64,000 bases of DNA from contig CAXXKJ010000002.1 in the NCBI GenBank assembly GCA_963675295.2, positions 4,475,757-4,539,756 of the forward strand, read 5' to 3'. Of the stretch, positions 58,840 through 63,960 are shown in pieces. Position 1 is the stretch's first letter. Each line of letters opens with the position of its first letter. The translations under genes and the position numbers were made by a program. A model generated the notes under the pieces. It did not search any database. It was not told the origin of the DNA and saw nothing but the letters and a program-made list of their open reading frames with translations. Origin of the DNA: a bacterium (GTDB lineage: Bacteria > Electryoneota > Electryoneia > Electryoneales > Electryoneaceae).

Positions 58840-59049
58840 TTAGATCTTGCCCTTGCGTTCGAGCGCGAGGTGCATCTTGCGCATCTTGCGGCGCGCGATA
58901 TTGGACTTGCGCTTCCGGGCTTCGGACGGCTTCTCGTAACGCTGGTGCTTACGGATTTCAGCCATCAGACCAGACTTTTCACACGCTTTCTGGAAACGCT
59001 TGAATGCCTTTTCGAACGGCTCACCTTCACGAACCTTGACATGCGGCAC
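58840..59049 (-). CDS. rpsU: 30S ribosomal protein S21
   Basis: VKVREGEPFEKAFKRF...YEKPSEARKRK; GGAGGTGA RBS. Confidence 0.96.
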   Translation of the reverse strand: MPHVKVREGEPFEKAFKRFQKACEKSGLMAEIRKHQRYEKPSEARKRKSNIARRKMRKMHLALERKGKI

Positions 59050-59184
59050 TGAACATCACCTCCAATCTGTGCCTGTAATCCTGATTTTCAACAGAGCGGG
59101 AATGTACAAGCGGGTATCGGTACAGGCAAGACAGTCCCCCTGAGTGAGCCTCTCTTTGCTACATCACTAAACCAGGGACAGACG

Positions 59185-60509
59185 CACAGCTGTCCCATTG
59201 AGCGATTAGTGAATCATCTGTAAGCGTTGTGGTTGTTGGGTTTGAGGGGTGTTGTTTTTGAAATCGATTTGAACTTGGTGTTTGAGTGCATGTTTTCACC
59301 TTCAGCGTCGATTCGCGAGGTGGAAGATGCACACGGGCCGGATGGTGTTTTCTCAGTTGATGGACGTGGTGTCCATGCAGGATTTTCGCAGTTGTGTCGT
59401 CCGGTACGGCGGCGAGTGGCGGGTGCGGCGTTTTTCCTGCTGGGATCAGTTTCTCTGCATGGTTTTTGCGCAGCTGACGCACCGGGAGAGCCTGCGTGAC
59501 ATCGAACTGTCGCTTCGAGCGGTTCAACGCAACCTGTACCACGCCGGGATTCGTGCGCGGGTGGCACGCAACACGCTGGCCAATGCCAACCGCCATCGGG
59601 ACTGGCGCATCTGGCAGGACCTGGCGCTGGGCCTGATTGACCAGGCACGGGCGCTGTATGCCGGCGATCCGCTGGCCGTAGACTTGGCGGGCACGGTTTA
59701 CGCGTTCGATTCGACGATGATCGACCTCTGTCTAACGCTGTTCCCGTGGGCGCCATTCGAACGCAGCCGCGGCGCGGTGAAGTTGCACACCATGCTGGAT
59801 TTACGCGGAAATATCCCCACGATGTGCGTCATCACCCACGGGCGGGTGCACGACGTCACCGTGCTCGACTGGATCCCGTTCGAACCAGGCGCGATCTATG
59901 TGCTCGACCGCGGCTACGTCAGCTACGCACGCCTCTGGCGCATCCAGCAGGCAAGAGCGGGCTTTGTCATCCGCGCGCAGCGAAACCTGAAAGCGACCGT
60001 CGTCGCAACGCATCCGGTGGATTCGGCAACAGGTGTACTCGAGGATCAGACAATCGTGCTGGCGATCCCCCACAGCCGAAGCCGCTATCCGGATCAACTG
60101 CGGCGTATCTGCTATCATGACCGTGAAAACGACCGCACCCTGACCTACCTCAGCAACCTTTTCACACTGCCGGCACGAACCATCGCCGATCTCTACCGGG
60201 AACGCTGGCAGATCGAATGCTTCTTCAAATGGATCAAGCAACATTTGCGCATCAAACGCTTCTACGGGACCAACAAGAATGCCGTCAAAACACAAATCTG
60301 GATCGCCATCACCACCTATCTGCTCGTCGCGATCCTCAAAAAACAGCTCCAACTCGAACCCAGTCCCTACCAGATTCTGCAAATTCTGGGCATCTCTCTC
60401 TTCGAACGCGTGCCTATAAAACAACTATTTAGCAACAAGCACGCGACCCTGTTTACCGACCACGATTCCAACCAGTTGAGTTTCCTCAACTTTTAATGGG
60501 ACAGCTGTG
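59185..60509 (+). mobile_element. IS4-family insertion sequence, copy 1 (1325 bp)
   Basis: IRs CACAGCTGTCCCATT(G/A)A; 9-bp direct repeat GGACAGACG at 59176-59184 and 60510-60518. Confidence 0.95.
59327..60496 (+). CDS. IS4-family DDE transposase (DUF4372-type N-terminus)
   Basis: FDST, LDRGY, YRERWQIECFFKWIK (YREK motif); stop codon inside the right IR; likely start MHTGRMVF. Confidence 0.95.
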   Translation: MHTGRMVFSQLMDVVSMQDFRSCVVRYGGEWRVRRFSCWDQFLCMVFAQLTHRESLRDIELSLRAVQRNLYHAGIRARVARNTLANANRHRDWRIWQDLALGLIDQARALYAGDPLAVDLAGTVYAFDSTMIDLCLTLFPWAPFERSRGAVKLHTMLDLRGNIPTMCVITHGRVHDVTVLDWIPFEPGAIYVLDRGYVSYARLWRIQQARAGFVIRAQRNLKATVVATHPVDSATGVLEDQTIVLAIPHSRSRYPDQLRRICYHDRENDRTLTYLSNLFTLPARTIADLYRERWQIECFFKWIKQHLRIKRFYGTNKNAVKTQIWIAITTYLLVAILKKQLQLEPSPYQILQILGISLFERVPIKQLFSNKHATLFTDHDSNQLSFLNF

Positions 60510-60563
60510 GGACAGACGGTTGTTTTATCGTGAAGAAAATAACATAAAAACTAGCGTCTGTCC
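60510..60563. repeat. 54-bp hairpin spacer 1
   Basis: GGACAGACG-GTTGTTTT-atcgtgaagaaaataacata-AAAACTAG-CGTCTGTCC. Confidence 0.9.
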
Positions 60564-61888
60564 CACAGCTGTCCCATTGAGCGATTAGTGAATCATCTGT
60601 AAGCGTTGTGGTTGTTGGGTTTGAGGGGTGTTGTTTTTGAAATCGATTTGAACTTGGTGTTTGAGTGCATGTTTTCACCTTCAGCGTCGATTCGCGAGGT
60701 GGAAGATGCACACGGGCCGGATGGTGTTTTCTCAGTTGATGGACGTGGTGTCCATGCAGGATTTTCGCAGTTGTGTCGTCCGGTACGGCGGCGAGTGGCG
60801 GGTGCGGCGTTTTTCCTGCTGGGATCAGTTTCTCTGCATGGTTTTTGCGCAGCTGACGCACCGGGAGAGCCTGCGTGACATCGAACTGTCGCTTCGAGCG
60901 GTTCAACGCAACCTGTACCACGCCGGGATTCGTGCGCGGGTGGCACGCAACACGCTGGCCAATGCCAACCGCCATCGGGACTGGCGCATCTGGCAGGACC
61001 TGGCGCTGGGCCTGATTGACCAGGCACGGGCGCTGTATGCCGGCGATCCGCTGGCCGTAGACTTGGCGGGCACGGTTTACGCGTTCGATTCGACGATGAT
61101 CGACCTCTGTCTAACGCTGTTCCCGTGGGCGCCATTCGAACGCAGCCGCGGCGCGGTGAAGTTGCACACCATGCTGGATTTACGCGGAAATATCCCCACG
61201 ATGTGCGTCATCACCCACGGGCGGGTGCACGACGTCACCGTGCTCGACTGGATCCCGTTCGAACCAGGCGCGATCTATGTGCTCGACCGCGGCTACGTCA
61301 GCTACGCACGCCTCTGGCGCATCCAGCAGGCAAGAGCGGGCTTTGTCATCCGCGCGCAGCGAAACCTGAAAGCGACCGTCGTCGCAACGCATCCGGTGGA
61401 TTCGGCAACAGGTGTACTCGAGGATCAGACAATCGTGCTGGCGATCCCCCACAGCCGAAGCCGCTATCCGGATCAACTGCGGCGTATCTGCTATCATGAC
61501 CGTGAAAACGACCGCACCCTGACCTACCTCAGCAACCTTTTCACACTGCCGGCACGAACCATCGCCGATCTCTACCGGGAACGCTGGCAGATCGAATGCT
61601 TCTTCAAATGGATCAAGCAACATTTGCGCATCAAACGCTTCTACGGGACCAACAAGAATGCCGTCAAAACACAAATCTGGATCGCCATCACCACCTATCT
61701 GCTCGTCGCGATCCTCAAAAAACAGCTCCAACTCGAACCCAGTCCCTACCAGATTCTGCAAATTCTGGGCATCTCTCTCTTCGAACGCGTGCCTATAAAA
61801 CAACTATTTAGCAACAAGCACGCGACCCTGTTTACCGACCACGATTCCAACCAGTTGAGTTTCCTCAACTTTTAATGGGACAGCTGTG
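60564..61888 (+). mobile_element. IS4-family insertion sequence, copy 2
   Basis: Same IRs and ORF; flanks CGTCTGTCC (left) and GGACAGACG (right) are inverted, not direct. Confidence 0.95.
60706..61875 (+). CDS. IS4-family DDE transposase
   Basis: Translation identical to copy 1. Confidence 0.95.
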   Translation: MHTGRMVFSQLMDVVSMQDFRSCVVRYGGEWRVRRFSCWDQFLCMVFAQLTHRESLRDIELSLRAVQRNLYHAGIRARVARNTLANANRHRDWRIWQDLALGLIDQARALYAGDPLAVDLAGTVYAFDSTMIDLCLTLFPWAPFERSRGAVKLHTMLDLRGNIPTMCVITHGRVHDVTVLDWIPFEPGAIYVLDRGYVSYARLWRIQQARAGFVIRAQRNLKATVVATHPVDSATGVLEDQTIVLAIPHSRSRYPDQLRRICYHDRENDRTLTYLSNLFTLPARTIADLYRERWQIECFFKWIKQHLRIKRFYGTNKNAVKTQIWIAITTYLLVAILKKQLQLEPSPYQILQILGISLFERVPIKQLFSNKHATLFTDHDSNQLSFLNF

Positions 61889-61942
61889 GGACAGACGGTT
61901 GTTTTTGTGTTATATTATTCACGATAAAACTACCGTCTGTCC
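61889..61942. repeat. 54-bp hairpin spacer 2
   Basis: GGACAGACG-GTTGTTTT-tgtgttatattattcacgat-AAAACTAC-CGTCTGTCC. Confidence 0.9.
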
Positions 61943-63267
61943 CACAGCTGTCCCATTGAGCGATTAGTGAATCATCTGTAAGCGTTGTGGTTGTTGGGTT
62001 TGAGGGGTGTTGTTTTTGAAATCGATTTGAACTTGGTGTTTGAGTGCATGTTTTCACCTTCAGCGTCGATTCGCGAGGTGGAAGATGCACACGGGCCGGA
62101 TGGTGTTTTCTCAGTTGATGGACGTGGTGTCCATGCAGGATTTTCGCAGTTGTGTCGTCCGGTACGGCGGCGAGTGGCGGGTGCGGCGTTTTTCCTGCTG
62201 GGATCAGTTTCTCTGCATGGTTTTTGCGCAGCTGACGCACCGGGAGAGCCTGCGTGACATCGAACTGTCGCTTCGAGCGGTTCAACGCAACCTGTACCAC
62301 GCCGGGATTCGTGCGCGGGTGGCACGCAACACGCTGGCCAATGCCAACCGCCATCGGGACTGGCGCATCTGGCAGGACCTGGCGCTGGGCCTGATTGACC
62401 AGGCACGGGCGCTGTATGCCGGCGATCCGCTGGCCGTAGACTTGGCGGGCACGGTTTACGCGTTCGATTCGACGATGATCGACCTCTGTCTAACGCTGTT
62501 CCCGTGGGCGCCATTCGAACGCAGCCGCGGCGCGGTGAAGTTGCACACCATGCTGGATTTACGCGGAAATATCCCCACGATGTGCGTCATCACCCACGGG
62601 CGGGTGCACGACGTCACCGTGCTCGACTGGATCCCGTTCGAACCAGGCGCGATCTATGTGCTCGACCGCGGCTACGTCAGCTACGCACGCCTCTGGCGCA
62701 TCCAGCAGGCAAGAGCGGGCTTTGTCATCCGCGCGCAGCGAAACCTGAAAGCGACCGTCGTCGCAACGCATCCGGTGGATTCGGCAACAGGTGTACTCGA
62801 GGATCAGACAATCGTGCTGGCGATCCCCCACAGCCGAAGCCGCTATCCGGATCAACTGCGGCGTATCTGCTATCATGACCGTGAAAACGACCGCACCCTG
62901 ACCTACCTCAGCAACCTTTTCACACTGCCGGCACGAACCATCGCCGATCTCTACCGGGAACGCTGGCAGATCGAATGCTTCTTCAAATGGATCAAGCAAC
63001 ATTTGCGCATCAAACGCTTCTACGGGACCAACAAGAATGCCGTCAAAACACAAATCTGGATCGCCATCACCACCTATCTGCTCGTCGCGATCCTCAAAAA
63101 ACAGCTCCAACTCGAACCCAGTCCCTACCAGATTCTGCAAATTCTGGGCATCTCTCTCTTCGAACGCGTGCCTATAAAACAACTATTTAGCAACAAGCAC
63201 GCGACCCTGTTTACCGACCACGATTCCAACCAGTTGAGTTTCCTCAACTTTTAATGGGACAGCTGTG
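61943..63267 (+). mobile_element. IS4-family insertion sequence, copy 3
   Basis: Same IRs and ORF; 9-bp direct repeat CGTCTGTCC at 61934-61942 and 63268-63276. Confidence 0.95.
62085..63254 (+). CDS. IS4-family DDE transposase
   Basis: Translation identical to copy 1. Confidence 0.95.
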   Translation: MHTGRMVFSQLMDVVSMQDFRSCVVRYGGEWRVRRFSCWDQFLCMVFAQLTHRESLRDIELSLRAVQRNLYHAGIRARVARNTLANANRHRDWRIWQDLALGLIDQARALYAGDPLAVDLAGTVYAFDSTMIDLCLTLFPWAPFERSRGAVKLHTMLDLRGNIPTMCVITHGRVHDVTVLDWIPFEPGAIYVLDRGYVSYARLWRIQQARAGFVIRAQRNLKATVVATHPVDSATGVLEDQTIVLAIPHSRSRYPDQLRRICYHDRENDRTLTYLSNLFTLPARTIADLYRERWQIECFFKWIKQHLRIKRFYGTNKNAVKTQIWIAITTYLLVAILKKQLQLEPSPYQILQILGISLFERVPIKQLFSNKHATLFTDHDSNQLSFLNF

Positions 63268-63294
63268 CGTCTGTCCCTGGTTTAGGAGAAGAAT

Positions 63295-63960
63295 ATGGCG
63301 CGCCAAGCCCGGTTCCTCGAACCCCAACTTCCCTACCACGTCACCCAACGTGGGAATTACAAGCAAGATGTCTTCGCAGACGATGAGGATCGCCATAAAT
63401 ACTTGAACCTATTGCATTTCTATTCAGGCAAGTATCACCTGGAAATCTGGGCATATTGCCTGATGAGCAATCATATTCATCTGATCGCGTATCCGGAGAA
63501 TGCCGATTCCCTTTCACGTGCACTCGCTGTTGCCCACATGAACTATGCCCAGTATTTGCACCGGAAATCTGGATTGGTCGGTCACTTGTGGCAGGGACGG
63601 TTCTACTCTTGCGCACTGGATGAGGATCACTTGCTTCGAGCCGCACGTTACGTGGAGATGAATCCGGTACGCGCGAAGCTTGTTGCAAAACCGGAGGAGT
63701 GGGAATGGTCCAGCGCGCGCCATCATCTTGGACTGGACTCCTCTACGTTGCTGGAAACCTCCCATTGGCCTGACGAAGACACGCTTGCGGAATGGCCGTC
63801 AATGTTGACTGCGCAAGATTCCGAAGGAGCCGTCGAGCAATTACGACGTGCTACTTATACCGGACGGCCTTTGGGAAGTGAAGAATGGATTGATATGTTA
63901 GAAACGAAAACGGGACGTCGACTTCGCCCCGGAAAACCGGGAAGACCGAGGAAAGCATGA
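63295..63960 (+). CDS. REP-associated tyrosine (Y1 HUH) transposase, RAYT-like
   Basis: YHVTQRGN, CLMSNHIHL (HUH), GHLWQGRF, YVEMNPVRA (catalytic Tyr), WEWSS; AGGAG RBS. Confidence 0.9.
   Translation: MARQARFLEPQLPYHVTQRGNYKQDVFADDEDRHKYLNLLHFYSGKYHLEIWAYCLMSNHIHLIAYPENADSLSRALAVAHMNYAQYLHRKSGLVGHLWQGRFYSCALDEDHLLRAARYVEMNPVRAKLVAKPEEWEWSSARHHLGLDSSTLLETSHWPDEDTLAEWPSMLTAQDSEGAVEQLRRATYTGRPLGSEEWIDMLETKTGRRLRPGKPGRPRKA

What the first reader, a model, noticed from the sequence alone, without database searches (positions are those of the whole stretch)
59167..63960. IS4 element inserted repeatedly into the arms of a RAYT-adjacent hairpin, forming an IS/spacer array
Seen: three same-orientation 1325-bp IS4 copies at an exact 1379-bp period, separated by two non-identical 54-bp spacers and ending 27 bp before a RAYT start codon. 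All six IS flanks are the same 9-mer, GGACAGACG or its complement CGTCTGTCC. Copies 1 and 3 have proper 9-bp target duplications. Removing the ISs gives a 72-bp hairpin unit, CTAAACCAGGGACAGACG-N36-CGTCTGTCCCTGGTTTAG, with 18-bp perfect arms. Established: RAYTs are flanked by REP/REPIN palindromes, and some ISs target REPs or dyad sites. Inference: this DDE transposon specifically targets a HUH transposase's own hairpin substrate and occupies both arms, a nested IS4-on-REPIN/RAYT system I do not recognise as described.
Basis: partly seen in the sequence, partly recalled or inferred. Interest (0 to 1): 0.88.

Follow-up and report, generated by a model that had tools for sequence, protein, structure and literature searches.

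The report
REP-hairpin-targeting IS4 element, triple array
Three identical copies of an IS4-family insertion sequence sit in the two arms of a palindromic repeat beside its RAYT gene, because this element inserts almost only at one 9-base site in such repeats, a behaviour already known for other insertion sequences.

Summary
Three 100% identical 1325-bp IS copies lie at a 1379-bp period. All six flanks are GGACAGACG or its complement, and the outer 18-bp arms are perfectly complementary.

The targeting interpretation holds.
- In the window's genome, 4 of 5 IS copies sit at this 9-mer in a hairpin arm. Empty hairpins of the family also exist.
- In three congeners and one genome of another genus of the family, all 10 true IS ends abut the same site.
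- An unbiased search with the IS end alone in metagenome contigs gave 28 distinct flanks. 26 are this 9-mer with at most one mismatch, and one more is the same site shifted by one base.
- RAYT homologues in the family are flanked by matching arms. More distant RAYTs carry different palindromes. So the hairpin is a REP/REPIN-type partner of the RAYT.

The novelty claim does not hold. REP-targeting insertion sequences are long known, including ISRm22 of the same IS4Sa subgroup.

The middle IS has no duplication of its own, and the two cores are flipped, diverged relatives. The array therefore needed an IS-mediated rearrangement or a composite transposition, not three simple hits on one hairpin.

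Verdict: a real, ordinary-to-moderately interesting new member of a known kind.

The parts
58840..59049 (-). rpsU (ribosomal protein S21), divergent neighbour of the array
   Evidence: Pfam Ribosomal_S21, E 1e-20
59167..59184 (+). Outer left arm of the hairpin (CTAAACCAG + 9-mer GGACAGACG). The 9-mer is the left copy of the IS1 target duplication.
   Evidence: (I2). Perfectly complementary to 63268-63285.
59185..60509 (+). IS copy 1: 1325 bp, 15-bp inverted repeats, transposase ORF 59327-60496 (389 aa from the ATG)
   Evidence: DUF4372 + DDE_Tnp_1. NCBIfam IS4_1 269.6 bits against a cut-off of 115.
60510..60563 (+). Spacer 1, a hairpin core: 9-mer, 36-bp loop S1, complementary 9-mer. Identical over 54 bp to the core of the IS-occupied hairpin on contig C1.
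   Evidence: Junction seen in Logan contigs.
60564..61888 (+). IS copy 2, with chimeric flanks (CGTCTGTCC on the left, GGACAGACG on the right) and no duplication of its own
61889..61942 (+). Spacer 2, a second hairpin core whose loop is flipped relative to spacer 1 (6 of 54 mismatches to its reverse complement)
   Evidence: (I1)
61943..63267 (+). IS copy 3, with target duplication CGTCTGTCC
63268..63285 (+). Outer right arm of the hairpin (9-mer CGTCTGTCC + CTGGTTTAG), 9 bp before the RAYT start codon
63295..63960 (+). RAYT-type Y1 (HUH) transposase gene, 221 aa. HIH at residues 60-62 and Tyr at residue 119.
   Evidence: Pfam Y1_Tnp. NCBIfam REP_Tyr_transpos 74.2 bits, cut-off 80. A profile of 11 homologues finds PDB 4ER8 TnpArep first, E 2.8e-8.

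Best explanation
**The element.** It is an active IS4-family insertion sequence that fits the IS4Sa subgroup. It is 1325 bp long, has 15-bp inverted repeats and one DDE transposase with an N-terminal DUF4372 domain, and makes 9-bp target duplications.

**Its target.** It has a strong preference for one 9-bp site, GGACAGAC(G/C). That site is the head of each arm of a family of palindromic repeats. These repeats are the REP/REPIN-type partners of a RAYT (HUH/Y1 transposase) clade.

**How it inserts.** Staggered cuts 9 bp apart on either side of the 9-mer place the IS in a left or a right arm, in either orientation, and duplicate the 9-mer.

**How the array arose.** The hairpin just upstream of the RAYT gene was hit in both arms. 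A second hairpin core bracketed by IS copies was then added. This happened either by transposition of an IS-core-IS composite into an arm, or by homologous recombination or gene conversion between IS copies at two occupied hairpins. The result is IS-core-IS-core-IS.

**Shown:** the anatomy, the target site, its recurrence, and the link of the hairpins to RAYT genes.

**Inferred:**
- the cut-and-paste chemistry, from family membership;
- the route that built the array;
- the idea that the transposase finds the site because the arm shares the CTGTCCC core of its own inverted repeat.
For: **Family**
- DDE_Tnp_1 and DUF4372. NCBIfam IS4_1 scores 269.6 bits against a cut-off of 115.
- The YREK motif (YRERWQIECFFKWIK) starts at residue 290.
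- Ends (CACAGCTGT...), size and 9-bp duplication fit the IS4Sa row of Table 1 in PMC2266710 (passages read).

**Activity**
- 5 of 5 copies in the genome are 100% identical.
- 4 of 5 have perfect direct 9-bp duplications.

**Target in the window's genome**
- 4 of 5 copies (8 of 10 ends) abut the 9-mer in a hairpin arm.
- 0 of the 41-43 occurrences of the 9-mer outside hairpin context are occupied.

**Target in relatives**
- IS ends abut GGACAGAC(G/C) or its complement in G003 (5 of 5), G001 (3 of 3) and as a remnant in G002 (1). The one end in G013 abuts the variant CCTCTGTCC.
- The junction pattern occurs in 4 of 79 genomes of the phylum, all four in the window's genus, 17 junctions in all.

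**Unbiased test**
- A 21-base pattern from the IS end alone found 33 metagenome contig stretches, 34 ends and 28 distinct flanks.
- 20 flanks are the exact 9-mer, 6 have one mismatch, 1 is the same site shifted by a base and 1 is unrelated.
- There the site heads short classical-looking REP stem-loops, and the transposase is only 57% identical to the window's.

**Hairpins independent of the IS**
- Exact hairpin pattern counts are 8 in G000, 22 in G003, 16 in G001, 3 in G005, 4 in G008, 6 in G015 and 5 in G007.
- No IS ends were found in G007, G008, G015 or G012. G005 gave only a one-mismatch hit at the level of the reversed-pattern control.

**RAYT link**
- Of 15 of 23 RAYT hits examined, all 5 with at least 60% identity have GGGACAGAC-type arms upstream.
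- The 4 intact ones also have one downstream.
- The 9 with 47% identity or less carry other palindromes.

**Fold**
- 5 of 6 empty hairpins fold at -13.5 to -23.7 kcal/mol as DNA. None of 200 shuffles does as well.
Against: - One of five copies (C2:1062707) sits in a non-hairpin site, with duplication GGTCCACCC. One of the 28 metagenome flanks is unrelated. The preference is therefore strong but not absolute.
- The arms have no internal palindrome, and the family has only about 8-22 copies per genome. It is not a textbook REP.
- G001 and G007 have hairpins but no RAYT of this clade was found with this query.
- The RAYT misses the NCBIfam cut-off (74.2 against 80).
- If contig C2 joins contig C1 as the 8-bp end overlap suggests, 4 of the 5 copies lie within about 10 kb. 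Local hopping then contributes to the clustering in this genome.
- Nothing here shows transposition directly.
- The route that built the array is not resolved. Both the composite and the recombination routes predict the observed flanks.
Confidence: 0.85

Rival explanations
1. The 9-mers belong to the IS: its real inverted repeats are 24 bp or longer, and the spacers are junctions of a tandem IS multimer.
For: IS2 read with its flanks has a perfect 24-bp inverted repeat. With the next bases, the arms reach 32 nt at 94-97% complementarity (I4 and I5).
Against: - At the outer ends of the array the 9-mer stands in the opposite orientation against the same IS ends.
- The copy at C2:1062707 has neither 9-mer.
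- The 9-mer pair with its loop occurs without any IS at 5 or more places in G000, and in genomes where no IS ends were found.
Confidence: 0.02
2. The hairpins are products of the IS itself, either miniature derivatives or excision footprints, and are not RAYT partners.
For: The arms share the 7-mer CTGTCCC with the IS inverted repeat. A 473-bp deletion derivative of the IS exists in G001.
Against: - G007, G008 and G015 have hairpins but no IS ends.
- The arm sequence co-varies with the RAYT clade, and the arms bracket RAYT genes.
- The CTGTCCC-like core is shared by the inverted repeats of distant relatives in many phyla that do not sit in such hairpins.
Confidence: 0.04
3. The array is a simple tandem amplification, by unequal crossing-over, of one doubly occupied hairpin, or it is an assembly artefact.
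For: - The period is exactly 1379 bp and the IS copies are identical.
- Unequal exchange between the two IS copies of a doubly occupied hairpin gives exactly the chimeric flanks of IS2.
- The array lies about 700 bp from a contig end.
- The k-mer depth of the IS contig is only about 2-5 times that of flanking contigs. The tool states that this depth is no copy number.
Against: - The two cores differ at 14 of 54 positions and are flipped relative to each other, while the IS copies show no difference. A recent duplication would give identical cores.
- Spacer 1 is identical to the core of a separate hairpin on C1.
- The junctions are present in contigs of 4 runs.
Confidence: 0.08

Closest known systems
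ISRm22 of Sinorhizobium meliloti (IS4 family, IS4Sa subgroup)
   Same: - It has a DDE IS4-type transposase.
- All 9-10 copies are inserted at one position of a REP with a palindromic consensus.
- Some copies lack matching direct repeats, which the authors attribute to recombination between copies (PMC1525189, passages read).
- It is placed in IS4Sa with conserved target arms (PMC2266710, passages read).
   Different: - Its direct repeats are reported as 6 bp and it inserts at the palindrome axis. Here the duplication is 9 bp and lies in each arm.
- No RAYT link was known in 2006.
- A 34%-identical transposase on S. meliloti megaplasmids was found, but it is unannotated there. Its identity with ISRm22 was not checked.
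IS1397 and ISKpn1 (IS3 family)
   Same: They insert specifically into palindromic units (REP) of enterobacteria, and the specificity is assigned to the transposase (as cited in PMC1525189).
   Different: They belong to another family, with two ORFs and a different pathway. That they insert in the loop is my recollection, not read here.
ISPpu9, ISPpu10, ISPa11 and IS621 (IS110 family)
   Same: Every copy sits at one position of a REP (PMC1525189, Table 2; abstracts of PMC8450116 and PMC12288879 in the listing).
   Different: They use a DEDD recombinase guided by a bridge or seek RNA (titles and abstracts). They have no terminal inverted repeats and make no 9-bp duplication.
IS231A and the ends of Tn4430 (recalled; not verified here)
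   Same: An IS4-family element that prefers the terminal inverted repeats of another transposon, so one mobile element parasitises the recognition sequence of another.
   Different: The target is a Tn3-family transposon, not a REP. The primary paper was not held. Only reference-list titles were seen.

Membership tests
IS4 family, IS4Sa subgroup | DDE transposase of the DDE_Tnp_1 type with a complete YREK motif | tested here: met
   Pfam PF01609, E 3.5e-29. NCBIfam IS4_1 269.6 bits, cut-off 115. YRERWQIECFFKWIK starts at residue 290.
IS4 family, IS4Sa subgroup | Size 1150-1750 bp, ends CA------T, direct repeats of 8-10 bp (Table 1 of PMC2266710) | tested here: met
   1325 bp, ends CACAGCTGT, 9-bp duplications at 4 of 5 copies (table read). 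No tree with named IS4Sa members was made.
REP-targeting insertion sequences (type 1 association of Tobes and Pareja) | Copies inserted at the same position of a repeated extragenic palindrome, so that a target consensus can be rebuilt | tested here: met
   4 of 5 copies in G000, 10 of 10 true ends in relatives, and 26-27 of 28 distinct metagenome flanks.
REP-targeting insertion sequences | Specificity shown by experimental transposition | not testable with these tools
   Needs an assay.
RAYT (REP-associated tyrosine transposase) | Y1/HUH fold with an HUH motif and a catalytic tyrosine | tested here: met
   Pfam Y1_Tnp. H60, H62 and Y119 are invariant or nearly so in 11 homologues. The profile finds 4ER8 TnpArep first, ahead of the next hits, which are annotated only as transposases.
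RAYT (REP-associated tyrosine transposase) | Passes the curated NCBIfam equivalog model | tested here: not met
   74.2 bits against a cut-off of 80. This is a near miss, so I call the protein RAYT-type rather than an equivalog.
RAYT (REP-associated tyrosine transposase) | Single copy, flanked by its own REPs in inverted orientation | tested here: met
   - There is one copy of this clade in G000. The other hits are 47% identical or less.
- The 4 intact close homologues have arms on both sides.
- In G000 the downstream arm appears only if C2 joins C1 through the 8-bp overlap.
REP / REPIN | Two inverted REPs separated by a spacer that form a hairpin, repeated in the genome | tested here: met
   8 exact-pattern copies in G000, 22 in G003 and 16 in G001. 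Folds.
REP / REPIN | Each REP is itself a 20-40 bp imperfect palindrome present in high copy number | tested here: not met
   In the window's genus the arms have no internal palindrome and the copy number is about 8-22. The metagenome targets do look like short REP stem-loops. I therefore write 'REPIN-like'.
Composite transposon (IS-passenger-IS) | Two IS copies bracket a segment, and the whole is flanked by one target duplication | tested here: inconclusive
   IS1-core1-IS2 is flanked by GGACAGACG on both sides, and IS2-core2-IS3 by CGTCTGTCC on both sides. Every route through this target gives the same flanks.

The most novel reading that the evidence does not exclude
A set of IS4Sa-like elements are specialised parasites of RAYT-type repeats. 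Their transposase reads the GGGACAGAC head of the repeat with the same contacts it uses on the CTGTCCC core of its own inverted repeat.

**The lineages.** The set comprises the window's lineage and an acidobacterial/metagenome lineage. In the tree they are separate, but a test does not reject a single clade (AU p 0.26).

**Reach.** This would let these elements track HUH-transposase substrates across distant hosts and across different repeat architectures.

**Effect on the RAYT.** By piling up at the RAYT-flanking repeat, they would break up the RAYT-repeat partnership. In the sister species G001, the orthologous site upstream of rpsU keeps only a decayed arm plus an IS-end remnant, and no RAYT of this clade was found.
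Probability: 0.2. Interest if true: 0.6.

Novelty: new member of a known kind. Interest (0 to 1): 0.35.

Why it matters
- It adds a well-documented case of a DDE insertion sequence with near site-specific insertion into the recognition repeats of a domesticated HUH transposase. The host is a small, little-studied phylum, with only 79 genomes in the collection searched.
- The same 9-bp site is used in two different repeat architectures.
- Such elements mark neutral landing sites. They convert repeat doublets into singlets, seed rearrangements, and could serve as site-directed insertion tools.
- It does not open a new category. The phenomenon, including an IS4Sa example, has been in print since 2006.

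Tried and rejected
- **Rfam.** A search of four hairpins and the locus gave only sub-threshold miRNA-hairpin look-alikes.
- **PDB, single sequences.** Searches with the RAYT and with the transposase found nothing. Only the RAYT profile worked.
- **Promoters and terminators.** Sigma-70 and terminator scans around both ends of the array found nothing. No statement can be made on read-out from the IS into the RAYT gene.
- **A wasted call.** One search was a misdirected fold of 20 unrelated bases and says nothing.
- **Closed or missing sources.** The IS231A paper PMC208117 is not held. The S. meliloti homologue has no annotation in PLSDB, so its name is unknown.
- **Read data.**
  - Contigs cannot give order or copy number. 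Depth ratios of about 2-5 were set aside because the tool says they are no copy number.
  - One loose end in X15, behind 60564, reads as the reverse complement of the C1 left flank. I take it for a fold-back artefact at the palindrome and did not follow it up.
- **First tree.** The tree used wrongly framed sister-IS ORFs and was discarded. The tree replaces it.
- **Origin of targeting.** The AU test of a single origin was inconclusive (p 0.257).
- **Inversion models.** I tried on paper to explain the array as an inversion between the array and the inverted C1 copy. None of the three possible exchanges gave a simpler ancestor.
- **Dropped hits.** Two one-mismatch hits of the IS-end pattern (G001:C60, G002:C5) and one in G005 lie in unrelated sequence. 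They were dropped as chance, since the reversed-pattern controls also gave single hits.
Full report
**What is there**

The window is the last 64 kb of contig C2 of a two-contig, 4.81-Mb genome.
- Between rpsU (58840-59049, minus strand) and a 221-aa Y1_Tnp gene (63295-63960) lie three letter-identical 1325-bp elements, at 59185-60509, 60564-61888 and 61943-63267.
- Each has perfect 15-bp inverted repeats (CACAGCTGTCCCATT).
- Each has one ORF, 389 aa from the ATG at 59327. That ATG is the start that aligns with relatives from residue 1.
- The ORF carries DUF4372 and DDE_Tnp_1 and a complete YREK motif. It scores 269.6 bits on NCBIfam IS4_1, cut-off 115.
- Size, ends (CA, with T at position 9) and 9-bp duplications fit the IS4Sa row of Table 1 of De Palmenaer et al. 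2008 (PMC2266710, passages read).

**Layout**

Write A for GGACAGACG and A' for its complement. The locus then reads:

CTAAACCAG-A-[IS1]-A-S1-A'-[IS2]-A-S2-A'-[IS3]-A'-CTGGTTTAG

- The outer 18-bp arms are perfectly complementary.
- IS1 and IS3 have direct duplications. IS2 does not.
- The two 54-bp spacers are not copies of one another. They differ at 14 of 54 positions read directly, and at 6 of 54 when one is reverse-complemented (I1).
- So they are two members of one hairpin family in opposite loop orientation.

**Is the 9-mer target or IS end?**

The genome has 5 full copies of the IS, all 100% identical.
- Besides the array, one copy on contig C1 sits in the right arm of a hairpin, with duplication CGTCTGTCC. 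That hairpin's 54-bp core is identical to spacer 1.
- One copy, at C2:1062707, sits in an unrelated site, with duplication GGTCCACCC.
- Empty hairpins of the family lie at C2:819522, 1255069, 2151356, 3733977 and 4375149. A divergent one lies at 3731010, and there are several half sites.
- 5 of 6 empty hairpins fold as DNA at -13.5 to -23.7 kcal/mol, and none of 200 shuffles does as well.
- Of 67 occurrences of the 9-mer in the genome, 24 lie in the family as I had listed it. Two more have arm-like context by eye.
- All 8 IS-adjacent occurrences are in the family. None of the remaining 41 is IS-adjacent.

The 9-mer is therefore target, not IS.

**Related genomes**

With the IS as a DNA query, close relatives of its ends were found in the three other genomes of the genus and in one other genus of the family.
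- Every true end abuts the same site:
  - G003: 5 of 5 ends, with the local arm variant GGACAGACC.
  - G001: 3 of 3 ends, including a 473-bp deletion derivative with duplication GGACAGACG in what now looks like a lone arm.
  - G013: 1 of 1 end, with the variant CCTCTGTCC.
  - G002: a 15-bp IS-end remnant next to CGTCTGTCC.
- The junction pattern occurs in 4 of 79 genomes of the phylum, all four in this genus.
- A sister IS in the same genomes is 67% identical in DNA, with inverted repeat CAATGCTGTCCC. It has 9-bp duplications in unrelated sites.
- In 80 loci of relatives 54-60% identical in protein, from many phyla, I could place ends in 73. 42 of the 72 with flanks have perfect 9-bp duplications.
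- Their targets are unrelated to the 9-mer, apart from L104 and L125 (see below).

**Unbiased test**

A 21-base pattern taken only from the IS end found 33 metagenome contig stretches with 34 ends and 28 distinct flanks.

| Flank 9-mer | Distinct flanks |
|---|---|
| GGACAGAC(G/C) or its complement, exact | 20 |
| One mismatch | 6 |
| Same site shifted by one base | 1 |
| Unrelated | 1 |

- There the site heads short stem-loops that look like classical REPs, often in inverted pairs.
- The contigs have about 60% G+C.
- The two contigs that carry the gene encode a transposase 57% identical to the window's.
- In a tree of 56 transposases, this element groups with L104 and L125 (SH-aLRT 99). These are Acidobacteriota loci whose IS ends also abut GGACAGAC-like heads of long hairpins.
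- The window's IS groups with its non-targeting sister IS (SH-aLRT 91).
- A tree holding all four targeting elements together is not rejected (AU p 0.257). One or two origins of the targeting remains open.

**What the hairpin is**

- The neighbouring protein has the HUH motif (HIH at 60-62) and the tyrosine (Y119), both conserved in 11 homologues.
- A profile of these homologues finds E. coli TnpArep (4ER8) as the best solved structure, E 2.8e-8.
- The curated NCBIfam RAYT model is narrowly missed, at 74.2 against 80 bits.
- I examined 15 of the 23 RAYT hits in the family:
  - All 5 with at least 60% identity have GGGACAGAC-type arms just upstream.
  - The 4 intact ones also have one just downstream. 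In G015:C232 the gene lies between a left and a right arm.
  - The 9 more distant homologues carry other palindromes, for example heads GGGGACAGTATA and GGGGACACTT.
- This co-variation is the hallmark of RAYT-REP pairs.
- Hairpins occur without the IS. G007, G008 and G015 have 5, 4 and 6 copies and no IS ends.
- G001 and G007 have hairpins, but no RAYT of this clade was found with this query.
- Unlike textbook REPs, the arms here lack an internal palindrome and number only about 8-22 per genome. I therefore call them REPIN-like.

**Neighbourhood and history**

- The end of C2 and the reverse complement of the end of C1 overlap by 8 bases. The C1 end supplies a right-arm half site about 58 bp after the RAYT stop, where orthologous loci have one.
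- If the join is real, the C1 copy of the IS lies about 2 kb downstream of the RAYT in inverted orientation. Then 4 of the 5 copies lie within about 10 kb.
- Upstream of rpsU in the three congeners:
  - G001 (91% identical there) keeps the arm followed by a decayed IS-left-end remnant and no RAYT.
  - G002 keeps a lone degenerate arm.
  - G003 has nothing.
- So the repeat at this site is old. The site was occupied by the IS before or independently in G001. RAYT loss beside an IS remnant is suggestive but unproven.

**How the array arose (inference)**

- Two simple insertions explain IS1 and IS3.
- IS2 has the left junction of a right-arm insertion and the right junction of a left-arm insertion. 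That is what recombination between IS copies, or transposition of an IS-core-IS composite, produces.
- Simple unequal exchange is unlikely, because the cores differ while the IS copies do not.
- The identity of spacer 1 with the C1 hairpin core points to that locus, or a relative of it, as the partner.
- Tobes and Pareja describe the same kind of copies without matching repeats for ISRm22, and give the same explanation.

**Mechanism**

- By family membership the element should move by DDE cut-and-paste, with 9-bp staggered target cuts.
- The target is a G+C-rich 9-mer with partial dyad symmetry (GG-C-G-C(C/G)) between A+T-rich flanks.
- The one off-target site (AAACATG-GGTCCACCC-CCCGTTTT) resembles this pattern.
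- A lone arm seems to suffice (G001:C7). This argues for sequence recognition rather than recognition of a cruciform, though the partner arm could have been lost later.
- The arm shares CTGTCCC with the IS inverted repeat, and after insertion the two motifs lie 11 bp apart. This is post hoc and only suggestive. I estimate about a 2% chance for a shared 7-mer.

**Comparison and verdict**

- REP-specific insertion sequences are established in five families, including IS4 (ISRm22, subgroup IS4Sa) (PMC1525189; PMC2266710).
- Insertion into REPINs as a source of singlets is noted by Bertels and Rainey (PMC3116915).
- My searches turned up no paper on this particular element or lineage. That says little, since most of the older literature is not held.
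It is a new member of a known kind.
- The modest extras are:
  - both arms are occupied next to the RAYT itself;
  - a three-IS array carries two cores;
  - the same 9-bp site is used in two repeat architectures.

Noticed in passing
G000:C2:352700-353030 (outside the window): Two tandem ~95-bp copies of the IS left end (85-87% identical to bases 1-94) lie next to a degenerate hairpin arm (TTAAATAGGGACAGAC...). This looks like an old, decayed insertion or a small derivative.
   Followed up: partly
G000:C2:520850-520900 (outside the window): A right arm (CCACCGTCTGTCC) is followed by about 18 bases resembling the IS left end, then a degenerate copy of the 9-mer. It looks like an IS reduced by internal deletion.
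   Followed up: no
window 64000 (end of C2) and G000:C1:274390-274429: The two contig ends overlap by 8 bases (GAATCTTG). The join would place a half arm about 58 bp after the RAYT stop. It would be followed by a 640-aa ORF that I read, by eye only, as a secreted protein with a C-terminal sorting tail, and then by the inverted C1 copy of the IS.
   Followed up: partly
L148 (G001:C46), upstream of rpsU: The orthologous site in the sister species holds the arm plus a decayed IS-left-end remnant (GGGACAGACACACAGCTGTCTCCCAATT) and no RAYT. This may be an IS-associated deletion of the RAYT.
   Followed up: partly
G000:C2:4008691-4009137 and G000:C1:220382-221000: The genome has further RAYT-like genes with their own repeats. 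One is flanked by GGGGACACTT hairpins. One on C1 sits next to a ~40-bp repeat that has 80 or more blast hits across the genome. The IS is in none of these.
   Followed up: no
L069, L072, L076, L082, L086, L087, L110, L119-L124 (mostly Acidobacteriota MAGs by record title) and L033 (G001:C3): Many relatives of this IS sit inside tandem 7-bp repeats (for example units of CTGACCA, GAAATCT or CCTGAGA), with 9-bp duplications. This suggests another repeat-directed target habit in this IS group.
   Followed up: partly
L125:3660-3780 and L104:2290-3780: In an Acidobacteriota MAG, two IS copies lie about 75 bp apart (IS-spacer-IS), with GGGGAC-type heads at the junctions. In a Bryobacteraceae MAG, the IS right end abuts GGACAGACA in the left arm of a roughly 100-bp hairpin.
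   Followed up: partly
window 60564, run X15: One Logan contig continues after spacer 1 into the reverse complement of the C1 left flank. That would be a perfect long palindrome around the hairpin, probably a fold-back artefact (table 7).
   Followed up: no
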